Below, piece by piece: positions 30,844 to 50,143 of a stretch of DNA of 64,000 nucleotides. The notes below the pieces were generated by a model. The model was not told the origin of the DNA. It saw only the letters and a program-made list of their open reading frames with translations, and ran no database searches. The stretch's first letter is position 1. Each line of letters starts with the position of its first letter. A program made the translations under genes and the position numbers. The DNA comes from a virus. Where the stretch lies: the IMG/VR virus record IMGVR_UViG_3300035696_000005, positions 64,001-128,000 of that record. One strand, given 5' to 3'.

Positions 30844-31271
30844 TGGTGGAGCCGCAGGGGAGCCGCCCCCCTGGTCCAAAACTCTTCGCCTCAATTCATC
30901 TACATGCTTAGCTTGTTTTGCGGTCAAGCAACCGTAATTCAGGCCCGACCTGGTTAGAGGTCGATCCACCAGCCACCAAGTTTTTTACGAGGCAAGGTAG
31001 CTATCCTCGGAGCCGATTTATTTCCACCAACCGGCATGGCAGTTTGCTGGATTCTGTTGCTAGGTCCTCAGCACCCCGACTGCTTCATTAGCTTGTGCTA
31101 ATTAGGCAGCCATACGGACTTCGCGGGCAGCGTCGCGAGCTTGGCGAGCAGCAGCGAAATCCACGTGAATGACATTGTCATTTACATTTTGATCAATTTT
31201 TAAGGAGACCACTTGATCAACCTCCGCATGCAAACCGAGCCTCTCTAGTTCTGTCGAATCTAATCGGCCCC
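30844..31271 (-). ncRNA. ssrA: tmRNA (one-piece, about 428 nt)
   Basis: 5' GGGGCCGATTAGATTCGAC, 3' CGGCTCCACCA; 7-bp acceptor with G3:U70; internal tag ORF ...VNDNVIHVDFAAARQARDAAREVRMAA* (stop 31102-31104); TATAAG just upstream. Confidence 0.92.
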
Positions 31272-31280
31272 ATACAGAAC

Positions 31281-31778
31281 TTATACCACAGGTTCTGTTA
31301 AATCGCACTCAGGAATGGAAGGCGGAGTCCAGACAATCCAAGTCACCTTGGGGAAGTCTAAGAGCACGCCTTTCAGTGCTGTTTCCGTATGCTCCCACGG
31401 CACGTTAAATAGCCCTGAGTTAAAGCGGTTCGAATGAATCTCAATCGGGACATCAGTATCGAGGTAGGCTTTGAAAAGATCTTTCAAAGCCAGAATCGTA
31501 TTACCGATAATCGCCGGTCGCTCATCCAAACTCTTTGCAAATCCACCTGAAGTGATCAGGCAACCTACGTTCTCCGAAGTGAGAAACGTTGTGCCAGACA
31601 CCTTTGAATCGTGGTGTTCACAATAGTCTCTGTATTCTTTGTGGGACTTAGGAAACCGCTTCCTAAATTCTACAGCAATACCTGAACCCCATACCCCGTA
31701 TGAGTTGCAGGCATGCACCAGAATACTTCCTGTAGGAGCCTCAAAAAGGCTCCCTGTTTTGTGTCTTACTTGGGTCAT
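31281..31778 (-). CDS. Macrodomain (ADP-ribose-binding/hydrolase) protein
   Basis: LVHACN..G.WGSGIA..F, IHSNRFNSGLF.VPW. Confidence 0.85.
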   Translation of the reverse strand: MTQVRHKTGSLFEAPTGSILVHACNSYGVWGSGIAVEFRKRFPKSHKEYRDYCEHHDSKVSGTTFLTSENVGCLITSGGFAKSLDERPAIIGNTILALKDLFKAYLDTDVPIEIHSNRFNSGLFNVPWEHTETALKGVLLDFPKVTWIVWTPPSIPECDLTEPVV

Positions 31779-38645: not shown

Positions 38646-38664
38646 GCTTCCTCCAAAATAAAAA

Positions 38665-38692
38665 ATGCGGGCAAGGTTTCCCCTGCCCGCAT
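38665..38692 (-). terminator. Intrinsic terminator
   Basis: ATGCGGGCA/TGCCCGCAT stem then U-tract. Confidence 0.7.
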
Positions 38693-38697
38693 CAAAT

Positions 38698-39612
38698 TTA
38701 CAGGGACGCGGTTCCCGAGCCCCTACCTGCCGAAAGAGAACTTACGGCATTTCTTACAACTACTGCGGTGTTACCTTCCCAGCTTGAGGCAACATCGTCG
38801 TGATCGTGTCCTTCATTGACCTGAATGGCGCTGACGATCACTTCAGCAAGTTTAGTGTGATCCGCAAGACGGATCGCACGTTGCGGAAGAATTCGGTTCC
38901 AGTCTTGGAAAACCTGATCTGTTCTTCCGCGAGCATAACTACCTTCTTCCACAATAATGTGGAATACCTCATAGACCCGAGAGACTTCAGTGAGAAGCTC
39001 ACGTGCCGAAATATCGGTATGAGCATTATCACCAAAGAAGTTATTCAGGTCCCTGGCTCGAAGCATTGGGGTAGGCAGCTCGTCACCGATGGTGAAGAGA
39101 TAACCTTTCTTGCCCCGCTTCTCAACGCAGTCCGTACTGGTATGGCGAGCTCCCATGTACCAGGCAGCGATATAGGACTCGTAAGGATTCCCACCACCTC
39201 CGCCTTCCAGGTAGAACTTCTCCAGCTGCTGGGCGATCCTGAGATCGGCTTCAAACTGGGTTGCCTGGACAGGAGCACGGTCGCATTCCATATCACCGAT
39301 AGCCATGCACATAATGTGCGGATCAGTGACGGGTCTACGCTGGTAGATCTCCGATACCAGAGTTGGAACCCCTTTGCGAGCCATGTGATCTGAGATCATT
39401 CCCATTGATCCGGTAACGTCCTGAGCGATGATGATCGCTGTAGACTGCGGATTATCAGAGGAATCTCTGGATTCACGGACTCTGACGCCCTTCACATCCA
39501 GAGCGGCATCGATCCTCCGGCTGGTGAAAATCTCGTCCGTGGTCTTCGTTTCGTAGCTATTTGTCGTAGCGTAGGCTTCCCAATCCTTCGGATTAAACCT
39601 TCCTGATCCCAT
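38698..39612 (-). CDS. vWA-like domain protein
   Basis: IAQDVTGSMG, AIGD, EGGGGGNPYESY, FTIGDE. Confidence 0.8.
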   Translation of the reverse strand: MGSGRFNPKDWEAYATTNSYETKTTDEIFTSRRIDAALDVKGVRVRESRDSSDNPQSTAIIIAQDVTGSMGMISDHMARKGVPTLVSEIYQRRPVTDPHIMCMAIGDMECDRAPVQATQFEADLRIAQQLEKFYLEGGGGGNPYESYIAAWYMGARHTSTDCVEKRGKKGYLFTIGDELPTPMLRARDLNNFFGDNAHTDISARELLTEVSRVYEVFHIIVEEGSYARGRTDQVFQDWNRILPQRAIRLADHTKLAEVIVSAIQVNEGHDHDDVASSWEGNTAVVVRNAVSSLSAGRGSGTASL

Positions 39613-39614
39613 CG

Positions 39615-39782
39615 TTAGCTCTCCTTAGCAGGCGAATGACCGCCTTCGTTTTCCATTGCTTCAGCCGGGGTGGCTTCAGCGGGTGTGGCCTCGATAGCGG
39701 CAGGTGCTGCTTCAGCAGGCTTTGCCTCACCTTCCGGTGCCTTTGCATATTCTTCCATCGTTGTACTAGATACTCCGCCCAT
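39615..39782 (-). CDS. 55-aa Ala/Glu/Pro-rich peptide
   Basis: GGAG RBS; PAEA repeats; below ORF cutoff. Confidence 0.55.
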   Translation of the reverse strand: MGGVSSTTMEEYAKAPEGEAKPAEAAPAAIEATPAEATPAEAMENEGGHSPAKES

Positions 39783-39817
39783 AAATTCTCCTATTGGTGA
39801 CTACGTTTTAAATCTAC

Positions 39818-40036
39818 AAATAAAGAGAGGACACCGGGTCAAGGTCGGTGTCCTCTCCATCTTCTCGGGTCAGATTCCTGTCCGGCCCTTAACAGGCTCC
39901 TTTAAGGACAGCCGCCACTACCCTCCATTGGACTGACAGCCGGGCGACACTTCACAGAAAATCCCCCGTAATGGGATTTTGTTTTCTGTGGATAGGGTGA
40001 TGCTCGTATTACGCCGCCGAGAAAATACTTTTGCCC
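39818..40036 (-). ncRNA. Candidate standalone structured ncRNA or leader (about 220 nt) ending in terminator 39825-39857
   Basis: Own promoter motif at 40043-40064, no ORF, nested stems and a loop-loop complement, 12-bp terminator. Confidence 0.6.
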
Positions 40037-40042
40037 CAAAGA

Positions 40043-40064
40043 CTTATACCCATATCTTGGGTAT
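40043..40064 (-). promoter_or_regulatory. ATACCC-N10-TATAAG motif copy 3 (inverted repeat ATACCCA/TGGGTAT)
   Basis: Intergenic, upstream of candidate ncRNA. Confidence 0.65.
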
Positions 40065-40065
40065 T

Positions 40066-40278
40066 TTAGAATCCCTTTCTGGTTGGAACCGACTGCTCAA
40101 TTCCCATACCGCTATTGGCTACTGTCTGAAGGTGCTTAGAACAAGATTCACAAAACCTATGCGACTTATCGGTCTTAATCATCTTGCCACCACACCATCC
40201 AAGACACGGTCTATATTTAACTCCCTTCTGTTTATGAGCAACATTTCTCGACATGTTCTTAGAGGTTTTAGAGCTCAT
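40066..40278 (-). CDS. Small Zn-finger protein (end of Ubl operon)
   Basis: CLGWC...CESC. Confidence 0.65.
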   Translation of the reverse strand: MSSKTSKNMSRNVAHKQKGVKYRPCLGWCGGKMIKTDKSHRFCESCSKHLQTVANSGMGIEQSVPTRKGF

Positions 40279-50121: not shown

Positions 50122-50143
50122 CTTATAACCAGAAAATGGGTAA
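50122..50143 (-). promoter_or_regulatory. TTACCC-N10-TATAAG motif copy 4
   Basis: Directly after terminator hairpin 50149-50182. Confidence 0.65.

What the first reader, a model, noticed from the sequence alone, without database searches (positions are those of the whole stretch)
39818..40036. Candidate novel pseudoknotted ncRNA with its own promoter and terminator
Seen (minus strand): promoter motif at 40043-40064, then about 220 nt with no ORF and a 12-bp terminator. Pairings: TTCTCGG/CCGAGAA closing helix, GTCAG/CTGAC, CTGTCC/GGACAG enclosing CCTTAA/TTAAGG, and CACAGAAAA...AAAATCCC/GGGATTTTCTGTG. The ATTACG loop of the last is exactly complementary to CGTAAT near the 5' end, and ACCC-TA-TCCA can pair with TGGAGGGT. 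I could not match it to 6S, SRP, RNase P or a riboswitch I recognise. Inference: a standalone structured RNA, or a riboswitch/attenuator for the downstream vWA-Ubl2-purA genes.
Basis: partly seen in the sequence, partly recalled or inferred. Interest (0 to 1): 0.7.

Follow-up and report, generated by a model that had tools for sequence, protein, structure and literature searches.

The report
New double-pseudoknot RNA gene in phage
A 182-kb peat phage carries a roughly 215-base non-coding RNA with its own phage-type promoter and terminator; its intricate fold is kept by compensating mutations in two related phages and matches no described RNA family, but its job is still unknown.

Summary
On the minus strand, 40037-39815 is an ORF-free unit. 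It starts about 9 nt after one of the best copies of the phage's two-part promoter (TACCC box, 8 nt, GGTATAAG; 8 copies against 0.03 expected). It ends in a 13-bp terminator hairpin with a U-run.

Homologues lie in the same gene slot in two related uncultured phages (L004, L005). A covariance model built only from those two finds the window's copy (25.5 bits, E=1.4e-6).

On the three-sequence alignment, 96.6% of cells pair and 19 pairs carry changes on both sides. Slid controls give 1-4; 0 of 500 shuffles reach it.
- the 6-nt loop of P2 pairs with CGUAAN, itself the loop of a mini-hairpin, so this is a kissing complex;
- ACCCU pairs with AGGGU in the P3a loop.

Neither pairing was in the model. 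Rfam 15 has no match.

The function is not shown. I favour a stand-alone stable RNA (about 0.5). The phage's tmRNA and its Y-RNA-like array ahead of a Ro60-like gene have the same promoter-RNA-terminator-gene layout, and relatives keep the downstream operon without this RNA. A riboswitch or attenuator leader remains possible (about 0.3). Only three distinct sequences are known.

The parts
40059..40067 (-). Upstream promoter box AAAATACCC. It overlaps the TAA stop (40068-40066) of the preceding 70-aa zinc-finger gene.
   Evidence: Read. The TAYYY box 7-10 nt before G[GT]TATAAG occurs 8 times on this strand against 0.03 expected.
40043..40050 (-). Downstream promoter element GGTATAAG
   Evidence: 18 copies on the gene-sense strand against 3.6 expected; 11 lie 12-22 nt before an RBS and start codon. 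The same element sits 9 nt before the 5' end of the tmRNA.
39815..40037 (-). Whole predicted primary transcript (about 215-222 nt), from the inferred start (40037-40034) to the U-run after the terminator
   Evidence: The start is inferred by analogy with the tmRNA, whose 5' end is 9 nt after TATAAG. The end is the terminator. No transcript data were available.
40017..40024 (-). P1, 5' strand (closing helix); pairs with 39861-39868
   Evidence: 8 pairs, 100% paired in 3 sequences, 5 with changes on both sides (helix 1).
40005..40016 (-). P1a mini-hairpin (3 bp, 2 of them formed in this copy). Its 6-nt loop CGUAAU (40013-40008) is the 5' partner of the kissing interaction.
   Evidence: RNAalifold predicts it. 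The middle pair is C-G, U-A and G-C in the three sequences (helix 2).
39994..39998 (-). 5' strand of the second tertiary pairing (ACCCU); pairs with 39920-39924
   Evidence: 5 pairs, 100% paired, 2 with changes on both sides. This helix was not part of the covariance model (helix 4).
39953..39990 (-). P2 long hairpin. Its 6-nt loop AUUACG (39972-39967) is complementary to the P1a loop.
   Evidence: The stem differs in all three sequences, with 7 pairs changed on both sides (helices 5, 6). The loop-loop pairing is 6 of 6 in all three, with 2 compensatory changes (helix 3).
39933..39937 (-). P3, 5' strand GUCAG; pairs with CUGAC at 39869-39873, which abuts the P1 3' strand with no spacer
   Evidence: Invariant in all three sequences (helix 7). 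No covariation, so the support is sequence conservation only.
39920..39924 (-). AGGGU in the loop of the small P3a hairpin; 3' strand of the second tertiary pairing
   Evidence: helix 4.
39878..39911 (-). P4 arm (CUGUCC...GGACAG with an inner UUAA/UUAA helix). This is the variable peripheral arm; the relatives have a longer P4-P5 arm here.
   Evidence: Read. The relatives' P4/P5 pairs are, helices 9, 10. The only SNP between copies of this phage lies in the P4 loop.
39861..39868 (-). P1, 3' strand
   Evidence: helix 1.
39815..39858 (-). Intrinsic terminator: 13-bp stem (39858-39846 with 39836-39824), 9-nt loop, then UUUAUUUGU
   Evidence: In the full transcript it forms with mean pair probability 0.90, independently of the upstream domain.
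39615..39782 (-). First downstream gene (55 aa) with an AGGAG RBS, 40 nt after the terminator. There is no promoter motif in between.
   Evidence: The N-terminal motif MGxVxxETxxQYA is shared with the small gene that precedes the 304-aa gene in four relatives.

Best explanation
This is a gene for a stand-alone, stable, structured non-coding RNA of a family not described so far.

Shown:
- The RNA is conserved in sequence and structure in three related phages.
- It folds into a closing helix P1 that holds a compact core locked by two tertiary pairings: a 6-bp kissing complex between the loops of P1a and P2, and a 5-bp pairing between the strand before P2 and the loop of P3a.
- It also has an invariant helix P3 and a variable arm P4.

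Inferred:
- Transcription starts about 9 nt after the phage-type GGTATAAG promoter, roughly 10 nt before P1, and mostly stops at the strong hairpin terminator 3 nt after P1. That gives a discrete RNA of about 215 nt.
- The fraction of polymerases that reads through supplies the downstream genes (55-aa gene, 304-aa vWA protein, then Ubl2, PurA-like and a second vWA), which have no promoter of their own.
- By analogy with this phage's Y-RNA-like array placed ahead of its Ro60-like gene, the RNA most likely works as a protein-bound scaffold or decoy, possibly with proteins of the neighbouring operons.

The partner and the activity are unknown.
For: Homology and structure:
- nhmmer finds a match in the same slot of L004 (E=0.0035).
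- A covariance model built from L004 and L005 only finds the window's copy over its full length: 25.5 bits, E=1.4e-6 in 2 kb and 2.8e-5 in 39 kb.
- 96.6% of cells pair and 19 pairs are changed on both sides; 0 of 500 shuffles reach this and slid controls give 1-4.
- The two tertiary helices were not in the model, yet pair 100% with 2 compensatory changes each.
- G-U pairs fix the strand.

Own transcription unit:
- The element has a full two-part promoter.
- The terminator folds independently of the core.

The layout is the one this phage uses for bona fide RNA genes:
- tmRNA: TATAAG, 9 nt, tmRNA, terminator, RBS and gene, with no promoter between.
- Four Y-RNA-like units, terminator, then a gene with a Ro60 vWA domain.

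Dispensable for the operon and modular:
- L090 keeps the promoter, other RNA modules and the operon but lacks this RNA.
- L005 has a 70-nt module between this RNA and the terminator.
- L003 lacks it.

A more distant relative (L219) has a tmRNA and a tRNA in the same slot.
Against: - No transcript evidence.
- Only three distinct sequences, all in one gene context, so context cannot separate cis from trans action.
- There is no promoter between the terminator and the next gene. That is also the classic layout of a terminating riboswitch.
- In L005 the RNA lies 240 nt after the nearest promoter motif, so there it is part of a longer RNA.
- No protein partner was identified. The 304-aa protein is a plain vWA fold with no evident RNA-binding domain.
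Confidence: 0.5

Rival explanations
1. It is a cis-acting leader: a riboswitch or a protein- or tRNA-responsive attenuator. The folded core senses a ligand and sets how many polymerases pass the terminator into the 55-aa / vWA / Ubl2 / PurA-like / vWA genes.
For: The order promoter, structured domain, terminator, RBS and gene, with no promoter in between, holds here and in L004. The position ahead of the same operon is kept in three phages. The size, closing helix and tertiary locks resemble large aptamers. P1 ends 3 nt before the terminator. The P4 5' strand shares UGUCCU with the terminator's 3' arm, so it could pair with the terminator's 5' arm in place of it (read).
Against: No conserved antiterminator was found. 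The terminator forms independently in all three full transcripts. The expression platform is not conserved: a plain hairpin here, a Y-shaped element in L004, and an extra 70-nt module in between in L005. L090 and L003 keep the operon without the RNA. The tmRNA and the Y-RNA-like array show the same layout, so the layout is not diagnostic.
Confidence: 0.3
2. It is an RNA element that acts on transcription or RNA decay without sensing a ligand. It could be a put-like processive antiterminator that lets polymerases from this promoter pass the two or three strong terminators of the 5.8-kb unit. Or it could be a structured 3' end that stabilises the upstream ubiquitin-like operon's mRNA.
For: There is no phage promoter motif between 40048 and 34180, yet strong terminators lie at 39858-39824 and 38693-38664. 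The terminator after the 304-aa gene is conserved in relatives. The upstream operon has no terminator of its own before this RNA.
Against: L090 has the same internal terminators but lacks this RNA. Known put RNAs are two simple stem-loops, not a pseudoknotted core (from my knowledge of HK022). A stabiliser would not need this many conserved tertiary contacts.
Confidence: 0.12
3. It is not a functional RNA. The pairings are chance or a relic of a degraded gene.
For: The MFE z-score is only -2.13. Only three sequences are known. The alignment was fitted to a model.
Against: 19 compensatory pairs against 1-4 in slid controls. The two tertiary helices were not in the model and still pair 100%. Indels are not in multiples of three.
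Confidence: 0.03

Closest known systems
Phage-encoded stable RNAs of the same genome: tmRNA (Rfam RF00023, window 30844-31271) and the Y-RNA-like array ahead of a Ro60-like gene
   Same: The same promoter type, the same order (promoter, RNA, terminator, RBS and gene with no promoter of its own), and rich structure.
   Different: No sequence or structure match to tmRNA, Y RNA or YrlA models. No tRNA-like domain, no tag reading frame, no Ro-binding stem motif. The Ro60-like gene is about 40 kb away and has its own RNAs.
Large riboswitch aptamers locked by loop-loop contacts (lysine riboswitch L2-L3, cobalamin riboswitch L5-L13 kissing loops)
   Same: Size of about 165 nt, a closing P1 next to a terminator, and a 6-bp kissing complex that locks a multi-helix junction.
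   Different: No Rfam hit even at E<=10. No conserved switching helix. The junction layout differs, and there is an added strand-to-loop pseudoknot.
Doubly pseudoknotted catalytic or regulatory RNAs (glmS ribozyme)
   Same: Two interlocked tertiary pairings in an RNA of about 170 nt that lies 5' of genes.
   Different: No match to the glmS model. There is no evidence for cleavage, and the helix order differs.
Candidate structured RNAs catalogued from IMG/VR intergenic regions (Fremin et al. 2023, PMC10690425)
   Same: The same kind of object: a phage intergenic RNA supported by covariation, of unknown function.
   Different: That catalogue needs clusters of homologous intergenic regions within IMG/VR. 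My two pattern scans of IMG/VR found no other copy, so this RNA is unlikely to be in it. I could not check the catalogue itself.

Membership tests
Any Rfam 15 family | Score at or above the family's gathering threshold | tested here: not met
   Whole window at gathering score: only the tmRNA elsewhere. At E<=10 on the element and on both homologues: only chance-level hits far below threshold.
Independent small-RNA gene | Own promoter of a type used elsewhere in the genome | tested here: met
   Full two-part motif; 8 copies against 0.03 expected. The same element drives the tmRNA.
Independent small-RNA gene | Own intrinsic terminator directly after the structured part | tested here: met
   13-bp stem plus a U-run, 3 nt after P1.
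Independent small-RNA gene | A discrete transcript of the predicted size is detected | not testable with these tools
No RNA data were reached.
Conserved structured RNA | Helices kept by compensatory changes in homologues | tested here: met
   19 of 54 pairs changed on both sides, 96.6% paired, with controls far lower. Only 3 sequences, so no R-scape-type statistics.
Transcription-terminating riboswitch / attenuator | Conserved alternative pairing (antiterminator) that excludes either the aptamer or the terminator | tested here: not met
   The terminator forms independently in the MFE and ensemble of all three transcripts. The platforms differ between homologues. Thermodynamic folding cannot exclude a kinetic switch.
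Transcription-terminating riboswitch / attenuator | Ligand binding to the conserved core | not testable with these tools
   Needs in-line probing, SHAPE or ITC.
Y RNA / YrlA | Terminal stem with a Ro-binding motif plus a tRNA-like module, encoded next to Ro60 | tested here: not met
   No Rfam match. Ro60-like gene and its own four Y-like units lie elsewhere in the genome.
HK022 put-type antiterminator RNA | Two stem-loops just after a promoter that make RNA polymerase terminator-resistant in cis | not tested
   The position after a promoter and before terminators fits. The architecture differs. The activity needs an assay.

The most novel reading that the evidence does not exclude
The RNA is the founding member of a new functional class. 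It could be a new riboswitch or ribozyme fold. Or it could be the RNA subunit of a new phage ribonucleoprotein built with the very widespread, uncharacterised vWA / PurA-like (and J-domain) gene set next to it, much as Y RNA goes with Ro60.
Probability: 0.25. Interest if true: 0.75.

Novelty: new variant of a known kind. Interest (0 to 1): 0.5.

Why it matters
Large phages are turning out to carry their own RNA biology. This one has a tmRNA, tRNA clusters, a suppressor tRNA and Y-RNA-like RNAs with a Ro60-like protein.

A further RNA with a conserved fold locked in two places, its own strong promoter and no known relatives adds to that set. The exact helices, tertiary contacts and transcript ends are predicted, so it can be taken straight to the bench.

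It sits between a phage ubiquitin-like conjugation operon and a vWA / PurA-like gene pair that occurs in thousands of phages and bacteria without a known role. Finding its partner or ligand could therefore open a way into those systems.

Against that, the family is tiny (three distinct sequences from peat, soil and wood metagenomes), and candidate structured RNAs of unknown function are common.

Tried and rejected
- blastn against GenBank phages with the element and with the L005 version: no match.
- Exact motif scan of IMG/VR: none.
- Structured pattern scans:
  - IMG/VR, 41 hits, all lacking P1 and the kissing complementarity, so random;
  - tighter pattern, 0 hits in 185,579 prokaryote genomes and 2 coding-region chance hits in IMG/VR;
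  - pattern for relatives' module C in IMG/VR: none.
- 160 loci around homologues of the 304-aa protein from IMG/VR and JGI metagenomes. nhmmer, a regex and cmsearch found no further copy. One 16-bit hit in L154-L157 lies inside a coding region and lacks the tertiary features.
- My own helix-descriptor scan was too unspecific to help.
- The genome search with model R1 failed to find even the window's own copy, so its negative results on five large IMG/VR phages say nothing.
- A three-sequence covariance model could not be calibrated within the time limit.
- The upstream 233-aa protein is an orphan, so it was useless as an anchor.
- An earlier helix 'P1.1' (75% paired) was dropped in favour of the P1a mini-hairpin.
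- NCBIfam and PADLOC gave nothing for the neighbouring proteins beyond PurA-like and a J-domain.
- Hammerhead-like CUGANGA in relatives' module B: part of a helix, no Rfam hit; rejected.
- RNase P, 6S, SRP and two-piece tmRNA readings: no Rfam support.

Full report
**Setting.** The window is bases 64001-128000 of a 182,359-bp IMG/VR phage record. Genes around the finding run on the minus strand.
- Upstream: a ThiF/E1-type gene, a 233-aa orphan and a 70-aa zinc-finger gene that ends at 40066.
- Downstream: a 55-aa gene (39782-39615), a 304-aa protein of phrog_2971, a small Ubl-like gene, a PurA-like gene and a 361-aa vWA protein.
- The window also holds a tmRNA (30844-31271, 95.4 bits) and a suppressor tRNA with anticodon CTA.

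**Observation.** The minus strand from 40067 to 39815 reads: AAAATACCC, 8 nt, GGTATAAG, about 20 nt, then roughly 165 nt of nested helices, then a 13-bp hairpin followed by UUUAUUU.

The promoter-like motif is real for this genome.
- G[GT]TATAAG occurs 18 times on the gene-sense strand against 3.6 expected from Markov simulations.
- With the TAYYY box it occurs 8 times against 0.03 expected.
- Eleven of the 18 lie 12-22 nt before an RBS and start codon.
- The same element ends 9 nt before the 5' end of the tmRNA.

The fold energy by itself is unremarkable (z = -2.13).

**Homologues.** There is no DNA match in GenBank phages.

I anchored on the 304-aa protein. Its family is huge: 7630 proteins at E<=1e-10 among the 8000 candidates scored. 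I fetched the contigs of its closest relatives, at 63-68% identity.
- Four contigs (L003, L004, L005, L090) share the GGTATAAG promoters and are true relatives.
- In L004 and L005 the gap after the ubiquitin-like operon holds a sequence that nhmmer aligns to the element (E=0.0035; read).
- A covariance model built from L004 and L005 alone, with a hand-derived structure, finds the window's copy over its full length. It scores 25.5 bits, E=1.4e-6 in 2 kb and 2.8e-5 in 39 kb, and is the only significant hit.
- Identical copies of the window's RNA occur in two further samples. The single SNP lies in the P4 loop.

**Structure.** The counts are on the model-derived alignment A6.
- The refined structure has 54 pairs. 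96.6% of cells form standard pairs and 19 pairs have changes on both sides.
- No shuffle of 500 reaches this. Sliding the partners by 1-3 columns gives 33-48% pairing and 1-4 such pairs.
- P1 has 5 compensatory pairs of 8.
- The P2 stem differs in all three sequences.
- The 6-nt P2 loop is fully complementary to CGUAAN in all three (CGUAAU, CGUAAA, CGUUAA), with two compensatory changes.
- That 5' partner is itself the loop of a 3-bp mini-hairpin, whose middle pair is C-G, U-A and G-C in the three sequences. The contact is therefore a kissing complex.
- ACCCU:AGGGU here corresponds to GUCGU:ACGAU in the relatives, again with two compensatory changes.
- These two tertiary helices were not in the covariance model, so their agreement is not an artefact of fitting.
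- P3 (GUCAG/CUGAC) is invariant. P4 is a variable arm.
- Several G-U pairs would be A-C on the other strand, which fixes the RNA to the minus strand.
- Caveat: three sequences, two of them 86% identical, give no formal statistics.

**Known families.** Rfam 15 gives nothing at gathering score. At E<=10 it gives only chance-level hits for the element and both homologues.

**Distribution.** I found no further copy in any of the following:
- 160 loci around 304-aa homologues;
- pattern scans of IMG/VR;
- one genome for each of 185,579 prokaryote species.

The family is narrow, or it diverges too fast for these searches.

**How it probably works.** Shown: a conserved, tertiary-locked fold; a genuine promoter motif; a strong hairpin with a U-run. 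Inferred: a discrete RNA of about 215 nt.

Four observations make me prefer a stand-alone RNA.
1. The tmRNA unit has the same order: promoter, RNA, terminator, RBS and gene, with no promoter between. So does the array of four Y-RNA-like units, followed by a terminator and a gene with a Ro60 vWA domain. In this phage that order therefore marks RNA genes and is not diagnostic of a leader.
2. Among the 18 promoters, long ORF-free stretches follow only these RNA units, this element and four other uncharacterised sites.
3. The locus is modular.
   - The window has this RNA plus a plain terminator.
   - L004 has it plus a conserved Y-shaped terminator-like element.
   - L005 has a 240-nt stretch, this RNA, a 70-nt module, then the Y-shaped element.
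   - L090 has only the 70-nt module and the Y-shaped element.

   The operon is kept without the RNA, and no fixed expression platform goes with it.
4. A 63% relative (L219) has a tmRNA and a tRNA in the same slot.

Folding of the full transcripts shows the terminator forming independently of the core.

**What keeps the cis-regulatory reading alive.** There is no promoter motif between 40048 and 34180. The 55-aa and vWA genes, and the genes after the second strong terminator at 38693-38664, therefore depend on read-through. That internal terminator is conserved in relatives, including L090, which lacks this RNA. All three copies of the RNA sit ahead of the same operon.

**Neighbouring protein.** The 304-aa protein models confidently (pLDDT 88) as a vWA, integrin beta-I-like fold with a DxTGS metal site. 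Nothing in it points to RNA binding, so a partnership with this RNA is only an analogy with Ro60.

**Verdict.** This is a real, new structured RNA family with a well-defined architecture and transcription signals. Its function is unknown: most likely a stand-alone RNA (about 0.5), possibly a leader or riboswitch (about 0.3). Interest is moderate because the family is tiny and the mechanism is open.

Noticed in passing
window 30844-31287 (-): A phage tmRNA (Rfam 95.4 bits) that ARAGORN did not report. GGTATAAG ends 9 nt before its 5' end. About 100 nt of structured sequence and a terminator follow, then an RBS and gene with no promoter between.
   Followed up: partly
whole genome; window copies at 50129, 40050, 34182, 10991 (-): Two-part promoter AAAATACCC, 8 nt, G[GT]TATAAG: 8 full copies against 0.03 expected, all on the gene-sense strand. 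Which polymerase reads this promoter is open.
   Followed up: partly
G000 139573, 45641, 43097, 30061 (-), outside the window: Four more full promoters are followed by 90-285 nt without an RBS-led ORF. These are further candidate RNA genes.
   Followed up: no
window 38698-39612 (-): The 304-aa protein belongs to a very large family without a Pfam model: 7630 hits at E<=1e-10, about 55-68% identity across phages and bacteria such as Geomonas. In every locus read here (about a dozen) a PurA-like gene lies within two genes downstream. The AlphaFold model (pLDDT 88) is a vWA fold with an intact DxTGS metal site. Function unknown.
   Followed up: partly
L004:2394-2456, L005:1534-1665, L090:2767-2896: Relatives carry two other conserved RNA modules in the same slot: a module of about 70 nt, and a Y-shaped, terminator-like element with conserved internal hairpins followed by a U-run and then directly an RBS. 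Neither has an Rfam match and neither occurs in the window's genome.
   Followed up: partly
L219:3590-4080: In a 164-kb relative, the gap ahead of the same J-domain / vWA / PurA-like operon holds a tmRNA and a tRNA with anticodon CAT. I read this from the sequence; no tRNA/tmRNA finder was run on this locus.
   Followed up: no
window 38664-38693 (-); L004:4959-4988; L005:4174-4204; L090:5930-5965: A strong intrinsic terminator between the 304-aa gene and the PurA-like gene is conserved in all relatives. No promoter follows it, so the PurA-like gene needs read-through or antitermination.
   Followed up: partly
window 39615-39782 (-): The low-complexity 55-aa ORF is a real gene. Its N-terminus MGxVxxETxxQYA is shared with the small gene that precedes the 304-aa gene in four relatives. 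Compared with them, this phage lacks the 85-aa and J-domain genes between the RNA and this gene.
   Followed up: partly
L223 (G000 140500-143000), minus strand: Four tandem Y-RNA-like units, the third with a tRNA-like insert, lie behind a GTTATAAG promoter. A terminator and a 570-aa protein with a Ro60 vWA domain (PF25045, 30.2 bits) follow. Rfam Y RNA models do not match.
   Followed up: partly
L154:3914-4113: The '333-aa J-domain' protein of relatives contains an HGDxSxxN stretch like a protein-kinase catalytic loop. Together with the vWA protein this recalls TerY-type vWA-kinase sets. Seen only by eye.
   Followed up: no
L005:1110-1150: Right after the promoter in L005, a strong RBS precedes a two-codon frame (ATG CGT TAA). 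About 200 nt of AT-rich sequence then precede the RNA.
   Followed up: no
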